From contig CAJVPI010000026.1 of the NCBI GenBank assembly GCA_910592345.1, forward strand, positions 1 to 64,000: DNA of 64,000 bases, in the 5' to 3' direction. Shown in pieces: positions 13,050-22,555 of the stretch. The stretch comes from Paraglomus brasilianum. Taxonomy: Eukaryota. Below the pieces are notes generated by a model that was given only the letters and a program-made list of their open reading frames with translations, was not told the origin of the DNA and searched no databases. How positions within the stretch are numbered: the stretch's first letter is position 1; every line of letters begins with the position of its first letter. A program made the translations under genes and the position numbers.

Positions 13050-16000
13050 TGCTGAATCAGGCTTGTGCTGACAAAGAACCCCTCAATTTGCATACCCCAA
13101 ACATATTTACAACCATACCTTTCTAGTAGTTGGACACAGGAAATTGCTTATATAGCATATAGACAGATGTATAAGCTTCAACTCGATATGGAAACAATGT
13201 TTCGCCTCTTATTATTATTTGTTGAGGCGTTTTGTTTACGGTGTGAGAACAATATTTAGAATTATGATTATATGCATTATGCATTATGCTCATCGTTTCC
13301 GTCATGATGGTAAATAACAATAACCGATGACTTATACAAGTGAATATGATCAAATTCACCCATCATTTTTCACACAACTGTTCGGCGTCCGCAATTCTCT
13401 GACTTGTCAAGCAGAGCCTTGTTGCTATATCAAATTTTTGCGGCGATAGTTGTTTAGTCAGGAGTTGGAGAACCCCGTTTAGTTCACTTATTGACTTTTC
13501 TCCATTTGTTAGTGATTCTAAAACCAGGATTGCGTTCCGTAATCTCCTGCATGTTTTTTCTCATTCATTGTATACCACATATCATATATTTACTCCGCGA
13601 TTTCATGCATCGTATCGCTAGTCAGATCTAGGGCTTAAAACTTAAACTCTGGCGCATATTCGGTAACTGAAACGGTTTTTTTATACTTGTTTAATATCCA
13701 AACCTTATGGACATCAACAGAACGAAATAAGCTGATCGTTTTGCGCCATTTTCTGCGTATTGATGCATGAACACGCGAATACAATGAGGTATACGTTGTC
13801 GTTACTTAAACAAGGACATACTGACATGTCTTTGTTTACAAGTGTATTACATAGCGCCCGCCGTAATACATGCTTTTATACATCCCCTGAGTGGAATACC
13901 CACCCTAAGAAAGGTCTACGGTATCCTCACAATTACAGCGCTTTTGAACTTTTGCATTACATTAGTATCAGGCGCATTGAAACTAATGTGTCCCATAATT
14001 ATCTCTCATTCTATGTTGCACGGGTATGTTAATAATTAATAGCCATTGTCAATTATGAATGTGAATAATAAATCTTGTTGAGCTCAATATTTGTACAACA
14101 TCGTTGGCAACTAATATTAGTAGTTACAGTAAGTATCCGAACAGCCTTAATTCTAATAGTGCATTACAAACCATGATTACCTGTAAAATTTCAGCTTGAC
14201 GACTGTCTTCAGCAAATTTTCCGATCATCCAATATTTACTGTATAAAACATATCAAAGCTGTACGTCGCTTATTTCGACATATACTTCAAAAATCCATAT
14301 CTCCACATGTTTCTAATCGATTTGCGTGATTAATTTTGTCTGTCGGATCAGAAAATCGTTATTATAACAATAAACGCGCATGATTATCGTTATGTCGCAC
14401 GATTATTGCATTTTGTAGTAGCGAGCACACAGTATCTTTAAAAAAGTGTCGGGATATCAAAAACAAGCCAATGTATCTTTTTCCGATACAACAGTGCTTA
14501 GATTTGCACCCCCTTCTTTTTGGGGGTTCTTGGTGGTCATTGCTGAGGTTTCAATCTGACCAAACTGATGAAAGATTGGAATACTGTAGATAATGGAAAG
14601 ATTAGTTAAGTTATTCAAAGTCACCGACAAAGAAGCATGTGGATTATGTTCTTGCGATTCAAATATTGTTACGATCTGATGAATCAGACAAGCAAGTCAC
14701 ATGGTAAAATCTTCGCGACGGTATTAGCTAATTTAGAATTTATTGGTTCTTTAAAGAATTTCTTCGTTTCGCATTTTGGGCAACGCTAAAGTATATATAA
14801 GCAGCCCTTCATGTTATCGATGTTGTTAGTATTACTTTATAATAGTACTACACGGAAATAAACGATTCCCTTTGCAATCGAAATTTTACTTTCTTTCATC
14901 GTTGAAATATTAATTATTTGACCGGACACAATAATTATTTATTGAAGCGAATATCGTTTAATTAGTTTATTAAGAGACAAAGTGACAAGACCCCGACTAG
15001 ATAGCCCTGTTTAAATAGGAGGGCGCATTTTAATTATTAAATTAAGTCACTTGTAAATTCTATTGAACAACTACCGTAATAAGGGCGGTAGCACGAAGCT
15101 AAATCTGGTAACATCCCCCGATCGGAAGAACACCCTACTACTACGCGAAAGATTAATCGCTCCGTGGATATTCGTTGGGACAAAGAAAAGAAAACGAAAT
15201 TGAGCAAAATACCCGAGACAAGAAGTACAGCCCAACAACTCCTAATGAAAAGATGCAAATTATCAATCCAACACTGACACGTCTATTACCTTCTCAATAA
15301 CCCAACTATGAAGCAATTAGTAGAATTCTACGACGACAGTTTGCATGCTTTCCCTTTAAGAAAGGAAAGTGCAGACTACAAAAGTGAAGGGGAACGTTTG
15401 TTTTGTCTATGTCGTTTAATTGTTGTTAGATATATTGTGTATGTGCGGCTCCCAGAGACGGAGGGGAGCGATATAAATTTCTCCGAACTAGCCACTAGTA
15501 TATTGCGGAGCCACTGAGAAACTATAGCACTTTTAAAAACTGGATCTTCTCAGGTCTTTAGGCAGCGAGACACAGGCCCTCTTTTCCAGCAGTGCAAATC
15601 GTACACAATCGCTACTAATGACAATGTGATGATATATCCAAAATTTTCTAGGTCATATCAGTTGCTGGGAGACTCTGTTGAGGTAACAAGACACTATCGT
15701 ACCAGCTATGAACCTAGTAGTTAAACCTAACCTTTTGCTAGTGCTCTTGAGAACACCTTCTTTAAGTGATGGAGAAATCTGCCTGTAAACAGAGCCTGAG
15801 AACTCTGTGGAAAGGGTAGCGAGCGTTCCACCGTGGGGTGTACCTCATTTGTGCGACACTATCAAATTGCCGGAAGGTCCTAAAGCTCCAAAGTACCGCG
15901 GAAAGCGTGAAAACGGTTTTGCAGCAGTAGAGCGTAATGGCTTTATGGATGGTAAAAACCTTTGGAGATTTAAGCACTATAGGCTGCTTGCAGTCTATTT

Positions 16001-17760
16001 TGTTATGCCCTGTATTGGCGACGATGTCATCAGTTCTAACATTTTCTTAGGGAAAATTTAGAGAAGCTAATCAGTTTATTTTTAGGATGGCTAGCTTGGA
16101 TACTCGTTCGAGTCCATGGCCCGTGTGGTGTCCCCACATGTCTGGACCTTAAGCAAGTCCTAGGTACGAGAATAAAGTGAGAAATGCTGATGATATACAG
16201 GGTCCCTTAAAAGAGGGAATGGATAATCGGCAGCCAAGTGGCCTGGGTGAGACTCTTAGAGTGCCCGACCATGCAGTTCACAGACTAAACGGTAGTGGGG
16301 TTCCGTCCCAATGCGACGTTCTGTTTGTTTTCGAGCAGGAGTAATAAGTAACACCGTCACTAGCGTAGACGAGGACTTTTGCTGGAAATCATTAATGAAG
16401 ATTGGGTGTAAGATCTGGAAAAATGGCCAGACACCAGCCAACTTCTACAGCTTGTTAACGTACAAAGGGGTATGAAAAACCGGAATCATAAGATATAGTC
16501 GACAGACGCCCGAAAGGGTAGTTAGTTAGTTCACTAACAAGAATCCGCCTATAGTTATCCACCACTATTTTGGATGTCAGGCCGATGATGATTGTGTGGT
16601 AACTGAGTACCGCGAAAGCATTGGAACAAAGACAAAGTTGGTAGATAACGTCTGAAACCGCAATGTGTGGGAAGCGTGTCTCTTTCTAATGTCCGTGAGG
16701 GGTCAAAAGGTACTGAGAAAAGTGAGGTGAAGTGTCTCGCGCTCCGCAGGCGCGTCATGGATCCGATCTGCTCGACGTATCGTAATGCCTTGTTGCGGGT
16801 TGCATTATGTATTGTAGACGCCGTTCCGACGGCCTCACACGGGATTGGCGATTGTGTTAAACTACTAATGGACGCGGAGGACCAATGTGATTAGGGGGAA
16901 AAGGGTCTGCTCATGATTTAACCCTGGTGTTCGATTTACTGGTAAATCACGTACGGGCCACGTCGGGCCTTTAATGCGGAGCCGCGCTCCAAATGCGTGA
17001 CAAAGTCTTCTTTGGTGAAAAGTCTACGTGAGGATTCTCAGTAGCCTTGGAAGATGGGAGCTATAGTTACCGTGGATGGAGACCTAACCGCTTCTGCTAT
17101 GTTTAAGGACTAACGTATATTATTTCACTTGGGCGAGTTCGGCGGTAGGTAAACCGCGAACCAGAACTTCTAGCATTAAGGGGTATGTGTTGTGATTCCT
17201 ACGATAGGTGTAAAACCGTTGCGATGTCTTATTGGGATTAAAGAACTGTTCTGCGGGCCTCCGATATAAATGGGGATCCATGTGTGTCCTAGGTAAGAGG
17301 GCAGCCTACCAATAAGCATCATTATGCACATCGGAATGAACTGACAATGGGAGATTACGACGCGTACTCATATAGGCGTAGGAGTAAAGCTAAACTGGTA
17401 GCCGAACATATCGAAAAAGGGATAAAACCTACTAAAGCGGGGTGAAATATGTATATTAGGTCAAATCTTGATGCTTGCTAAGGAATGGGCGCGAAATGGT
17501 AAGGGATGCCTGCGCAACTTGGTTGTTAAGCCAAGAAAGGGATAGGCTGGTAGGACCCCGATTTCCGGACCAGTGTCAAGATTTTGTTAGTCTTAAATAT
17601 CAGGTAAGAGTTAGGATGGAGTGTTAATCGTATGTCGAGGGTAGTCTACTCAGGACGCCGTAACGGGCTCACCACCCACTAACCCTCAGCACTCCTGCAA
17701 TTGGCGAAATCTGCGATCCACCAGAATACTCTGACGAAAAATTTTCGCCGAGTGGTAACC
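13050..17760 (+). pseudogene. Highly diverged, insertion-expanded relic of nuclear LSU (25S/28S) rRNA, roughly domains II-V, interrupted by a group I intron
   Basis: Colinear matches to remembered eukaryotic LSU motifs: tctagtagttgg 13122; tatctttttc..aacag..cacccc..gggg 14474-14526; gaatactgtagataatggaaag 14579; attggttct 14742; aaggggaa 15387; tgacaatgtgat 15619; aatgccttgt 16784; tgggagct 17055; ttctagcattaagg 17168; tgtccta 17285; aaaagggataaaa 17415; tcgtatgtcg 17628; cacccactaa 17673. Ends uncertain. Confidence 0.7.
15710..16541 (+). ncRNA. Group I intron ribozyme, subgroup IC1 (3' end uncertain, may extend further)
   Basis: P3 cactatc 15857 / ggtagtg 16291; P4 tgccgg 15868 / tcggca 16227; P5 gtcc/ggat; P5a ctccaaag 15886 / ctttggag 15960 with tacc/ggta and A-rich bulge; Q aatcggcagccaag; R gcagttcacagacta 16273; P8 ggttccg 16299 / cggaatc 16481; S aagatatagtcg 16490; P9 gccc-GAAA-gggt 16508; candidate P1 agctat 15704 / gtagtt 15717 with U.G. 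Confidence 0.93.
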
Positions 17761-20700
17761 GAGGTTCGATCGTCAATCGCATTACCCAATCACTTGTATT
17801 TTACATCGAGTTATACAGTAAGTCGGTTTATCGCGATTTTATTGCAGGTCTTGCAGACAGTAGCACGTTGGGATTGTTAAAATACTGTATGATACGTTTC
17901 GCACCAATTAACACCTTACATGAGCCCAAGAACAGATTTATGTGATACTTGCCAACGGTTTTGGAATAGCTTACAGTACAATGCTCGCAACGAAGAAGAA
18001 GCAAAAAATCTACTGACAAAATCTGGTTAGCATGAGGCCAAGTTAGAAAGAAATTATTACAGCCGACTGCCAATAATTCGACTCTATAATGCGACTTTTC
18101 AGTAATTCGATCGCCTTGAGCGAGGCCCGATTTTTTTATATGATATTTTTCTTCCTTTTATTCGATCGAACTTATTTGTTATTCGACCGCTTATTAAACC
18201 AGTGCATATAAATAATACTATAGTTGCATTCGTTAATTTAATTTCTGCCGATTATTCGAACGGCATTGATTTATAAAAAATTCGATAGTATGTTTCTTTT
18301 TGAAGTTGTACACTCATGCCAATTAGAACATCGTATGTCGACAACTTCAATATTAAAGTTCTTTGCAAACTTGAGGCCTTTTTCTTGAAGTATTTTATCT
18401 GAAAACATTTCCAACATGTGTAATATTCCGCACAGTACTTATTGTAATGAGGTATAGACGAGTGGTCAAAACCGTACTACGACAAAAGCATATCTGTCCA
18501 ATTAAATTATTAAACGAGACCTTAGGAAGATAGTGTTACTGTTCACAATAAGTACAGAAATACTTATACCTTCTAAATCTTGTAAAGGTATAACTGATTA
18601 TAATACATTAATTCAGAAACTGATATTCAATAATAAAAGAGCATCTATTTTAACCAATGGGAGTAATATAATAATAATGCTTTATTGTCAATACTCATCC
18701 AATCATATTGTATGTTCTACGTACAATAACAATACATTCATAATTCCACTATGGTCAGAAAAGGATAAAAGAGATCACCGTCTCCAATTAAGTTGACATG
18801 TCATCCACGTACATAATATTTACCTTATTACTTGCATAGTAAAAAGGCGTCAGGAGTATAGCAGAAATATTATCAAATTTATGTTAAAAAGTAGCAGTAT
18901 TTGTAAAAGAAAATAAGATAATATGACGCAGAGAGTTTCCCGAAGCTATTCGTTGGCATAGCGTTTTTCAAATGCTATCCCGTTATGGAGAAAAAATCGA
19001 GTCGTCGAAACGAGTTTAAGTACGGCTACCTCTCTTTTCCCATGACAATGTTGACACATTCTTGCCACCACCATTGGATAGCCTGTGAGTAGCAATTGTT
19101 ATAATGCTCGTAGATAAGGTGGAATAAAGTGCAGTTTACATGGAAAATTTAACTTGTGCAAAATTGGAGAACTATTGGTTATTGAATAAAATTTAAAATT
19201 AAACCGAAATCTAAAGATAAATTAAAGTCGCCATATTAATATAACATTGACATTAAAAATAATAAGCAAAGGTATTAGAAACGTCAAACATTCGAAAAGT
19301 ACATTTTTTTGCATTCCGTATTAAATAATATGTTATGGATATAATATTGGTTGTTATCTTCGGAATGATCTTCTTCTCTTGTTATCATTTATACCATTTG
19401 GTGCAATTCTAACTTGCCCTTATCGGTAATTGTTTATTATTGCTGGATGTCCGACTATGTACGCAGGGATTGAACTATTTCTCAAAGATTGAACATTCAT
19501 CCTCAAAAATCGAATTCGTCTTGTAAGAAAAGATTCCAACAAACAGTCGTATTGCAAAGCCCAATAGTGTAGTAATAATTTGAAGTTTGGATATACGTGG
19601 AAACAACGCTAAAATCATGACAGTCCATGCGTGCATATTTTCGATAAATGAATTTGTGGCTTTGTGCGACAATGCGTCACATAGTAATAAAATTCACTAT
19701 ATTGCTATATAACGGAAATGTACCGATTAAGATCGTTGCATAACGATACGGCCTAACTGTACTATATCGAAGATTTGCTATGACAAGGTTTGTTGTACAG
19801 CAAATGCCATAACCAGAATGTTCGGGCGACAGACAATTCTAATTGTTCGGCTGACAATATGTGCGACCAATGAGATTCCTTCCATAATCATTCCAATAAT
19901 GCATGTAACAGTGATGACTTCCTCCGCGTCATGGATAAGAATACTCTTTTACGTCATTTATAGCGAGAAAGTAATAAACTTCGTACCACGGCAGCATCAT
20001 GCGGCGCACATGAAGGGGTGAGGAGAAAATAAATGGTAGAGAGGAGGTGGAATGACGACTTAATTACGAAAATATAATGGAAATCAGTTAACTCAAAGCA
20101 GCAAATAAAGCAAGAACTTGAATTAGATTACCTTTTAACAAATAACTGAATTAGACAAGAGCAGCTACCTACATTCAGAGACTGTGGCACCTGTGGCAGA
20201 GTGGCGTTATGTCTTATGATCAACTTATGTGGGTTCCATTTATATACTAGCACGTTTATAGCTATAATAATAATAATAACCATAATGCAAAGTATCCAAG
20301 TGCGACTTTTGCCAGGTTAAGAATCAAGATTGGATCCATAATACAGGTTGCTTCTCTGATTGTTTGAAGAACGTGTGGGAATGTGTGTTCATCAATGATG
20401 AAAAGGGGTGTTGACTATAGTTGGCTGTGTTCAATCACTTGACACGGCTGAATTGGAAGGTGTGAAAGTTAAAGAGGACGTGAGAAGAACTGATGATGGG
20501 GGCCAGCAACAAGATCTTGATGGTTTTAATCGTCCACTTGGAGTACGCCACGCAGCCATGAGTGACCGTGACTGACGATAGCAGAAAGATCACAGCGCAG
20601 TTACACTGCGGAACGCGGAGATTGTGGAGATTTTGATCTGTTATGAGGAAATAATGATCTGATGATATCGTATGATTGGTGGCGATAGAACTCGGCTATA

Positions 20701-20910: not shown

Positions 20911-22555
20911 ATGTCTAATATTACAACCTCCTCCTCACTACTACTACTAAAACAGTGGGATACAATGGAACATCAAACAGCTGGTATGTTCTCATATGCT
21001 AGGCACTTTAATATTATCAACACAAAACACTTGTGCTCAATATCTTAATTTATGTCAACTACCAGATGAATGTCCCCGTAGACCCTCAGCTGACTCTTTT
21101 TCGACAGAACCGCACACATCCACGCATACAACCCCGATTTCCACCTCACCGACAACTCCAAGCGAGAGGGAGCAACAGATGACCACTGTGCAATCAATAG
21201 ACACAACTCCATCACAACCGACAGAAGCGTCTACTGCTGGACAAGAACAACGATCAATAACACAAACAACTCCAACTAATTCGTCACATGCAATGGATAT
21301 ACTTGTAAACACACAGACAACACCAGACCCCATACATATACAAATGCAAATACATACATCTAATATCATACATACTGCCTCTACTACTCCAGTTACTACT
21401 CCCACACAACCAACATCAAGTATAACCTTCCCTCAATCATTTGCATCGCCGCAAGAAACTTCAATAAGCGCACCCTCCACACCCTCTGCCAACAACTCTA
21501 CAAAAAAACCAGTAGTAACCAGGCAACCTCGCCTATTGGAATGCTACAACTGTGGAATAACAAATACCCCACTCTGGCGGAGGACACCCGACCGCATGCA
21601 TTCTTTGTGCAATGCTTGTGGTCTATACTATAAACAGTACAACACCCATCGTCCTCTCCACATAATACACAAGACAAAACCTGCTGCACGTTCCTATCCC
21701 TATATACTTCCCGCGTCGAAAGAGGCCGCGGCAGCAGCGGCAGCAGCAGCAGTTGCCGCTCAATTGAATACAGCACCGAGTCCGCAACCAACGCAGATTC
21801 AATCTTCTATACCAGTTGACCCGGTAACAATTGTAACCGAATCGGCAGTTCAATGTATTAATTGTGGACAAACACAGACGCCGCTCTGGCGGAAGAACGA
21901 GAAAGGCCAACCATTGTGCAATGCTTGTGGCTTATATGCCAAGATGCATAACAGAGATAGGCCGCTTGCAATGCGCAAGTCAAAAATCCAACGACGACGT
22001 AGAGATTGGGGTGCTGCATATCCATCAGACACTAACGGAAATTCATTAATTGAGGCATCAGGTTCCGACGAGTCTTTCTCGTCGAGTCCGCAGAGTCCTT
22101 CGCTATCACCGATGCAAGGCATAACATCTTCACCTAATCAACGACCGATAATGCCATTACCGCCTCCTACTACACATATTGCTCCTGCACTATTGACTTT
22201 GGCGACTGCAGCAACGTCTCAACAGCAACAGCAGCAGCAATTGCAGCTACAGCAATTGGAACAACTGCAGTTACAGAGAGCGCTGCAACAGCAGCAGCAG
22301 AATAATAATCAGCAGCAGTCCCCGATAAGTTCTCCTCCATCAAGTGATATTAATACAAATAACACACATGACCCGTATATGCCTCCACCGTTTGATTATT
22401 TTGACGAAGCAAAATTCAAGCAGCTGGTGGATAGATTATCGCGACGGCAAGTGGAGGAATTTTTGGCTGTGCTTGAGAGACGATGCGAGATTTTAAAGAA
22501 GGTTTTAGAGGATGAGGATGAGGATGAGGATGAACCAATGGTTAAAATGGAGTAA
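20911..22555 (+). CDS. GATA transcription factor with two C-x2-C-x17/18-C-x2-C zinc fingers
   Basis: [14 protein letters not shown]...LCNACGLY and [14 protein letters not shown]...LCNACGLY; poly-Q/poly-A tracts; likely ATG 20911 with intron ~20984-21065. Confidence 0.92.

What the first reader, a model, noticed from the sequence alone, without database searches (positions are those of the whole stretch)
15503..16857. Long-range helices clamp the two exons around the intron
Nested pairings span more than 1.1 kb: ttgcggagc 15503 / gctccgcag 16741; gcgagacac 15565 / gtgtctcgc 16732 (9/9); cctcttttc 15578 / gaaaagtgagg 16717; cagtgc 15590 / gtactg 16710. In addition, acacaatcgcta 15603 pairs with tggcgattgtgt 16846 (12 bp, crossing the others as a pseudoknot) or with gattgtgt 16590. 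Such intact pairing is not expected in neutrally decaying DNA.
Basis: seen in the sequence. Interest (0 to 1): 0.72.

Follow-up and report, generated by a model that had tools for sequence, protein, structure and literature searches.

The report
Giant self-splicing-type RNA outside ribosomal genes
A soil fungus carries, in chromosomal DNA with no ribosomal gene nearby, a stretch of about 2,400 bases that encodes no recognisable protein and is built around an intact self-splicing ribozyme core; it likely cuts itself free and persists as a folded RNA, which is unexpected because such nuclear ribozymes were reported only inside ribosomal genes, and the long-range 'clamp' first noticed is likely just an alternative fold inside it.

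Summary
The listed pairings exist at the stated coordinates, but they do not clamp exons, and no rRNA sequence is present. Both arms lie inside one ~2.41-kb ORF-less IC1-type group I ribozyme (about 15342-17754) in the nuclear DNA of an early-diverging fungus. P1 (U15341·G15374), the AAA linker, P2 (15383-91/15731-39), P2.1 and P3-P9 are intact, and the P1-P2 geometry matches an rDNA intron fetched here. Several 3' arms have equally good local partners (16975-82, 17035-48). With those partners included and the core enforced, clamp probability falls from 0.95-0.98 to 0.01-0.02, though the two folds are nearly equal in energy. Three DNA data sets join the 5' end to this non-rDNA flank. Best reading: a nuclear group I intron outside rDNA whose product is likely the stable intron RNA itself. 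Catalysis, both ends and function are inferred, not shown.

The parts
15338..15377 (+). P1 hairpin; U15341·G15374 wobble = predicted 5' splice site; guide sequence 15374-79
   Evidence: 8/8 pairs; hairpin z -3.6; G lies 9 nt before P2, as in the L004 SSU intron; two relatives keep 15354/69-15400
15380..15391 (+). AAA linker and P2 5' strand (pairs 15731-39)
   Evidence: 9/9 pairs; longest of 14 partners of >=7 bp in the 3.7 kb upstream and the only one preceded by AAA
   Evidence: z -2.8; pair probability 0.79-0.97 with core enforced; relatives' joints 15400>15644 and 15401>15643; an X1 record keeps 15420-42 and 15596-619
15648..15717 (+). second P2 arm, kept in relatives
   Evidence: 3 of 4 pairs of 15676-79/15690-93 changed on both sides and still paired in one relative (read by hand)
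15731..15854 (+). P2 3' strand, J2/2.1 and enlarged P2.1 (15741-44/15851-54)
   Evidence: no listed change at 15728-44 in the X8 relative; relatives' joints 15743>15853 and 15744>15850
15857..16501 (+). IC1-type catalytic core: P3 15857-63/16291-97, P4, P5abc, ~250-nt insertion 15973-16220, P6, P7 16283-87/16496-500 with G-site pair G16283-C16500, P8 16299-305/16481-87 with enlarged loop
   Evidence: Rfam RF00028, 57.7 bits, E 5e-12; P3, P4, P7, P8 fully paired; aligns with fetched IC1-like introns
16502..17751 (+).
   Evidence: 17066-17620 folds at z -3.6; an 89%-identical relative spans 16489-17186
17752..17754 (+). predicted P9.0 3' strand (GU) and terminal G = predicted 3' splice site (inferred; G16598 is the alternative)
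   Evidence: only candidate between 17624 and 17943; near-identical RNA contigs end at 17674-77 in two studies and no RNA depth from 17750; foreign homology starts just after
   Evidence: constrained MFE -752.3 vs -749.1 kcal/mol for the canonical fold
17757..18066 (+). 3' flank: decayed fragment (frameshifts, stop) of a gene family whose long members carry DUF7869
   Evidence: tblastn E 1e-27 to P0024; 7 of 8 longer homologs scanned hit PF25273

Best explanation
The paired segments lie inside one transcribed, ORF-less stretch of about 2.41 kb with an intact IC1-type group I ribozyme core, in fungal nuclear DNA without rRNA genes nearby; it likely cuts itself out of a short-lived precursor and likely persists as the stable product. 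Shown: core helices, P1-AAA-P2 geometry, RNA contigs confined to the element and unspliced inside it, relatives that keep the helix bases and swap the peripheral arms, non-rRNA flanks. Inferred: a guanosine bound at G16283-C16500 attacks after U15341, held in P1 by guide sequence 15374-79. The 3' end is then made at G17754 by exon ligation or hydrolysis, the flanks are discarded, and the expansions at P2, P2.1, P5, P8 and P9 make a large RNA or RNP scaffold.
For: Core intact. The P2 partner at 15383 is the longest of 14 candidates and the only one after AAA, with a U·G-forming G 9 nt upstream; the same geometry is found in 1 of 2 L004 introns scanned. Near-identical contigs in 3 RNA runs of 3 studies cover 15359-17677, with zero depth at 14668-15337 and 17750-18400 in those runs. 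Two RNA relatives keep both P2 strands and replace the part between predicted pairs 15400-15644 (44 letters between) and 15401-15643. An X1 record keeps exactly the two strands of the 15420-43/15596-619 rod. Joints at P2.1 and P8 fall within 1-3 nt of predicted pairs. X1, X4 and L002 carry the 5' boundary joined to this flank, with no loose end there in the two runs laid. No rRNA match in 64 kb or at E<=10 locally.
Against: No ligated-exon or circle joint among the 15 joints listed, so splicing is not shown. All RNA evidence is contigs, which cannot fix ends, strand or level. Exon-guide pairing is only 4 bp, against 6 in the L004 intron; P10 is 3 bp. The 5' flank is not detectably the missing half of the 3' gene fragment, so no host gene was found. 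G17754 is 1 of 26 GUG-type candidates. The P6 tetraloop-receptor letters seen in the fetched rDNA introns differ here. Thermodynamics does not separate the two folds. The geometry scan found no AAA-type P2 in the second L004 intron. The genomic setting of the relatives is unknown.
Confidence: 0.55

Rival explanations
1. One reading: rRNA-derived (LSU-like) exons flank a ~700-nt intron and are held together by long-range helices that juxtapose the splice sites.
For: The helices exist and dominate the fold of 15490-16880 and the unconstrained MFE of 15330-17765; excess WC complementarity between the two regions.
Against: No rRNA similarity. RNA contigs cross 15817 and 16522 unspliced. The unconstrained MFE lacks P2, P3, P7 and P8. 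The 5'-arm region is replaced in relatives. Of 9 changes in the 3' arms of an 89% relative, 4 break a clamp pair unless unseen partners co-vary and 5 become G·U (read by hand).
Confidence: 0.05
2. Two-state RNA: the canonical fold forms during transcription and cuts the 5' end; the RNA then refolds so that 15730-37 pairs with 16704-11 and the clamp closes, dismantling P2 and switching the ribozyme off. Compatible with the best explanation.
For: The folds lie within 3.2 kcal/mol of ~750; clamp probability 0.26-0.52 when the P2.1 base is forced; 15 vs 6.4 WC helices, P 0.006.
Against: The 5'-arm region is replaced in two RNA relatives and mostly in an X1 record. The excess is borderline after correcting for window choice. 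Shared words between 15445-600 and 16880-17070 could produce it as a by-product, but that similarity is itself not significant (P 0.07).
Confidence: 0.12
3. The intron ends early, at G16598, and 16599-17750 is a separate structured 3' exon that stays attached because the second step rarely occurs; the ribozyme only makes the 5' end of an unknown non-coding RNA.
For: G16598 has a 3-bp P9.0 and the same 3-bp P10 as G17754; the 12-mers at 16596 and 17752 are 11/12 identical; no listed change at 16593-610 in the 89% relative; it gives a normal-sized P9 region.
Against: Contigs of 3 RNA studies cross 16598 unspliced and no joint uses it; the downstream part matches no Rfam family.
Confidence: 0.12
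4. A recent ectopic copy of a giant rDNA intron: the RNA comes from an rDNA-resident twin, and this copy is intact only because it is young.
For: The core is closest to rDNA-type introns; the weak exon-guide match suggests a foreign site; an excised rDNA intron would give the same RNA cover.
Against: X1 holds the 5' boundary in one 9-kb contig and X4 in one contig, neither with a loose end or second flank there; L002 has the same flank. Contigs can drop branches, and the genome is not held.
Confidence: 0.1
5. A catalytically retired non-coding RNA gene with its own promoter and terminator; the group I core is kept as a folding scaffold only.
For: No splicing product seen; receptor letters altered; no host gene.
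Against: The G-site pair, J8/7, P1 wobble and exact P1-P2 spacing are all kept, and the guide/P2 segment is among the parts kept in relatives.
Confidence: 0.12

Closest known systems
Subgroup IC1 nuclear rDNA group I introns (Tetrahymena L1925 type; fetched examples in L004)
   Same: P3-P8 core, P5abc with A-rich bulge and GAAA loop, P2/P2.1, P1 wobble 9 nt before P2, GAAA-capped P9
   Different: About 2.4 kb against ~450 nt for the L004 SSU intron; no rRNA exons, whereas PMC3679873 (passages read) states that nuclear group I introns are found exclusively within functional rRNA genes; altered P6 receptor; no exon ligation seen
Myxomycete obligatory introns L1949/L2449 (PMC3679873 section 11, read)
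   Same: Large ORF-less peripheral insertions; stable intron RNA reported for L2449 as unpublished data, with a suggested lncRNA role
   Different: They sit in LSU rDNA, some lack P8, and their insertions can hold direct-repeat motifs; here P8 is intact, no long repeats were found and the host is not rDNA
ORF-less IC1-like introns in protein genes of giant DNA viruses (recalled for chloroviruses; scan note e1-8224984)
   Same: IC1-like core outside rDNA
   Different: Those split a viral gene and are of ordinary size; this one lies among fungal nuclear genes and no split host gene was found
Unannotated fungal group I ribozymes of Li and Breaker 2017 (PMC5640933, passages read)
   Same: Group I cores found in fungal genomes by comparative search (208 examples in 114 species)
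   Different: In the passages seen the authors did not examine P1, P2, P9 or P10 and give no genomic setting; the main text has no occurrence of Mucor or Rhizopus; supplements not opened

Membership tests
Group I intron, subgroup IC1 | Core helices P3, P4, P7, P8 and conserved junctions | tested here: met
   (my own P6 check used a wrong register; P6 rests on the Rfam alignment)
Group I intron, subgroup IC1 | G-C pair of the guanosine site in P7 | tested here: met
   G16283-C16500
Group I intron, subgroup IC1 | P5abc, P2 and P2.1 | tested here: met
   helix bases kept in relatives
Group I intron, subgroup IC1 | P1 with U·G at the 5' splice site, correctly spaced from P2 | tested here: met
   U15341·G15374, 9 nt before P2; exon side only 4 bp
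Group I intron, subgroup IC1 | Terminal G with P9.0 and P10 | tested here: inconclusive
   26 candidates; 17754 preferred by RNA cover and flank homology, 16598 possible
Group I intron, subgroup IC1 | Excision with exon ligation | tested here: inconclusive
   No ligation joint and no flank cover in 3 RNA runs; contigs drop rare forms
Group I intron, subgroup IC1 | Self-splicing activity | not testable with these tools
   needs an in vitro assay
Nuclear rDNA group I intron | Interrupts an rRNA gene | tested here: not met
   No rRNA match; L004 matches the window only in the core; the 3' flank is a protein-gene fragment
Mobile (homing) or twin-ribozyme intron | Encoded endonuclease or second ribozyme | tested here: not met
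   Longest sense stop-to-stop frame inside is 90 aa; one group I match only; internal frames were not scanned against Pfam
Circularly permuted intron (PIE-like) | 5' half of the intron (P1, P2 5' strand) lies downstream of the 3' half | tested here: not met
   A better P1-AAA-P2 lies upstream in normal order and is kept in relatives
Intron splitting a DUF7869-type gene | Both flanks colinear with one protein | tested here: not met
   The 3' flank matches, the 5' flank does not
Telomerase RNA | Single-stranded template followed by pseudoknot and CR4/5-like domain | tested here: inconclusive
   A template-like 8-mer at 17679-86 is mostly paired in the predicted fold and lies near the 3' end; the host's telomere repeat is unknown

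The most novel reading that the evidence does not exclude
A family of domesticated group I ribozymes in early-diverging soil fungi has left the rDNA and become free-standing nuclear non-coding RNA genes.
Probability: 0.3. Interest if true: 0.87.

Novelty: new variant of a known kind. Interest (0 to 1): 0.7.

Why it matters
The review read here says nuclear group I introns occur only in functional rRNA genes. An intact, expressed, 2.4-kb example in ordinary chromosomal DNA, with diverged expressed relatives, would be an exception. It would also make testable the idea, raised for myxomycete introns, that intron RNA can be kept for its own sake. It offers a ribozyme that tolerates about 2 kb of insertions at five sites, of use for structure work and circular-RNA engineering. 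Ten literature searches (open-access library only, judged mostly from listings) showed no description of it; that does not cover subscription journals or supplements.

Tried and rejected
LSU-derived exons: no Rfam rRNA match. Circularly permuted intron with P1 at 16680-16702: dropped once the upstream P1-P2 was found; the 89% relative also changes 16683-86. A profile gave nothing upstream, and the predicted join (15.4 bits) scored below the best of 700 trial joins (17.3) and did not extend into the 5' flank. Upstream frames: 0 of 8 short frames hit Pfam; no Atlas hit. Second copy in the window: none by blastn/nhmmer; 14488-14725 vs 16537-16781 is not significant (P 0.055 post hoc, 0.75 against the whole element). 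Duplication origin of the clamp arms: P 0.07. Fixed 200-nt folding windows: only 1 of 23 below z -2 on the + strand, so structure shows only when whole domains are folded (4 of 10 domains below -2, both flank controls near 0). Full-length relatives could not be fetched: 0 hits in 5 viral-contig scans and 1 genome-contig scan. The metagenome scan gave 4 loci, 2 near-identical and 2 unrelated introns, so no alignment-based covariation test was possible. Variant tables were cut (40 of 215 rows), hiding changes at the local partners beyond 16764. No whole genome is held, so copy number is open. The promoter scan is bacterial and uninformative. Earlier scan notes near this place, or on look-alike stretches: none.
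Full report
1. Observation. In a fold limited to 15490-16880, three of the helices have probabilities of 0.95-0.98. Against chance the picture is mixed. There is no excess with G-U allowed or over the whole element, and P is 0.055 once the choice of window is allowed for. The 12-bp pseudoknot is within chance (P 0.38).

2. Setting. The window is nuclear DNA of an early-diverging fungus: named relatives of two of its proteins include Glomus, Kickxella, Umbelopsis and Mucorales, at about 43-63% identity. Rfam finds one thing in 64 kb, a group I intron core at 15817-16522 (57.7 bits). The Rfam edges are model edges, not splice sites.

3. Anatomy. P3, P4, P7 and P8 pair fully and the guanosine-site pair G16283-C16500 is present. 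P5abc and P4-P7 align with IC1-like introns fetched in L001 and L004; the subgroup label is recalled knowledge. Reading upstream from P3, P2.1 opens at 15741/15854 and the P2 3' strand is 15731-39. Of 14 partners of >=7 bp for that strand in the 3.7 kb upstream, the longest (9 bp, 15383-91) is the only one preceded by AAA. Nine bases before it is G15374, which forms a U·G pair with U15341 in a stable hairpin. The L004 SSU intron shows the same geometry; the scan did not recover it for the L004 LSU intron. Downstream, P9.0 needs GU followed by G. There are 26 candidates; 17752-54 is the only one between 17624 and 17943. It lies where RNA cover has ended and just before homology to an unrelated decayed gene begins. 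The longest sense frame inside is 90 codons.

4. The clamp has local rivals. 16741-48 pairs as well with 16975-82, and 16707-19 with 17035-48. Their duplex is as stable as the clamp (-44.6 vs -43.1 kcal/mol). The pseudoknot's 5' arm lies largely in a rod, 15419-43/15600-25 (duplex z -5.8 for the rod region). When these partners are included and the core is enforced, clamp probabilities are 0.00-0.02; they are 0.26-0.52 with the P2.1 base also forced, and 0 with P2 forced. Constrained minimum energies differ by only 3.2 of ~750 kcal/mol, in favour of the clamp, so energy alone cannot decide.

5. Relatives decide it. In one RNA run, two diverged relatives keep 15354/69-15400 and 15643 onward and replace what lies between. 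Their joints, 15400>15644 (44 letters between) and 15401>15643, are both base pairs of the canonical fold. A low-depth record in the probable source run keeps only 15420-42 and 15596-619, which are the two strands of the local rod, with 212 other letters between. Joints at 15743>15853, 15744>15850 and 16299/300>16489 lie within 1-3 nt of predicted P2.1 and P8 pairs; some of the short-sided ones may come from ordinary rDNA introns. One relative changes both sides of 3 of 4 pairs in 15676-79/15690-93 and keeps them paired (read by hand; that record has 8 gaps). An 89% relative has 9 changes in the clamp's 3' arms: 5 become G·U and 4 break unless unseen partners co-vary (table cut, so the local partners could not be checked either). 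Short conserved arms hidden in the replaced segments cannot be excluded.

6. Expression and location. Of 24 runs listed, 20 hold part of the stretch and 7 are on record as RNA. In the three RNA runs laid (three studies), contigs with 0-2 differences cover 15359-17677 in overlapping but not gap-free pieces. They cross 15817, 16522 and 16598 unspliced, and depth is zero at 14668-15337 and 17750-18400. These are contigs found by similarity: they show presence and continuity, not ends, strand or level. The near-equal stops in two studies (15359/15364 and 17674/17677) are a weak hint. None of 15 joints removes the core or joins the flanks. L003 holds 15366-16726 in one identical piece. In DNA, X1 (possibly the source), X4 and L002 all carry the 5' boundary on this flank, with no second flank in the two runs laid.

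7. Flanks. 17757-18066 is a broken fragment of a gene family whose longer members carry DUF7869 (that this family is transposon-linked is recalled). The 5' flank is not its other half, so there is no identified host gene. The exon side of P1 is only 4 bp.

8. Mechanism. Most likely (0.55) the locus is transcribed with short flanks, the ribozyme cuts after U15341 with a bound guanosine and at G17754, and the intron RNA is what accumulates. The chemistry follows from established group I behaviour (PMC3679873, passages) and is not shown here.

9. Comparison and novelty. It works like an IC1 intron and meets the structural tests, but it fails the test for a nuclear rDNA intron. PMC3679873 (passages and section 11) places nuclear group I introns exclusively in rRNA genes; its closest case is the large ORF-less myxomycete introns, still in rDNA. 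PMC5640933 (passages) lists 208 unannotated fungal group I cores without ends or setting in the passages seen; its supplements were not opened and might hold relatives. Other papers were seen only as search listings. Verdict: the clamp is an ordinary alternative fold, but the element around it is a new variant of a known kind and worth follow-up. Interest 0.70.

Noticed in passing
window 14495-14545 and 14626-14663: Short stretches match other contigs: the first in three RNA runs at depth 200-330, the second in all four runs laid, where it continues into letters resembling the group I J8/7-P7 segment. Possibly remnants of another family member upstream; similarity of 14488-14725 to 16537-16781 is not significant.
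   Followed up: partly
window 17757-18066: Decayed fragment of a DUF7869-associated gene family starts within about 15 nt of the predicted 3' splice site.
   Followed up: yes
window 16596-16607 and 17752-17763: An 11/12 direct repeat spans both candidate 3' splice sites; may be chance.
   Followed up: partly
window 15717-15722 and 16518-16523: Two internal 6-mers match the guide sequence better than the actual 5' exon does; possible internal cleavage or circularisation sites.
   Followed up: no
window 17679-17686: An 8-mer like a TTAGGG telomerase template; an 8-mer is easily met by chance in 2.4 kb, and it is mostly paired in the predicted fold.
   Followed up: partly
L001 (minus strand 1690-1398 and downstream): An IC1-like intron in an AT-rich contig without an rRNA match, followed by a long coding-like stretch; perhaps viral.
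   Followed up: no
L002 vs window 14929-14930: A near-identical allele has a 43-nt insertion about 400 nt upstream of the element.
   Followed up: no
window 15073 onward (X1 record 1): The 9-kb contig holding the element has depth 1418 in the probable source run; amplification bias is likely but a higher copy number is not excluded.
   Followed up: no
window 15092-15341: A coding-like frame broken by one TGA runs up to the predicted 5' splice site; no Pfam or Atlas hit. 15202-15238 matches another contig in run X16.
   Followed up: partly
window 20996-22555: Nearest long ORF downstream has two CxxC-x17-18-CxxC motifs like a GATA-type factor (motif name recalled).
   Followed up: no
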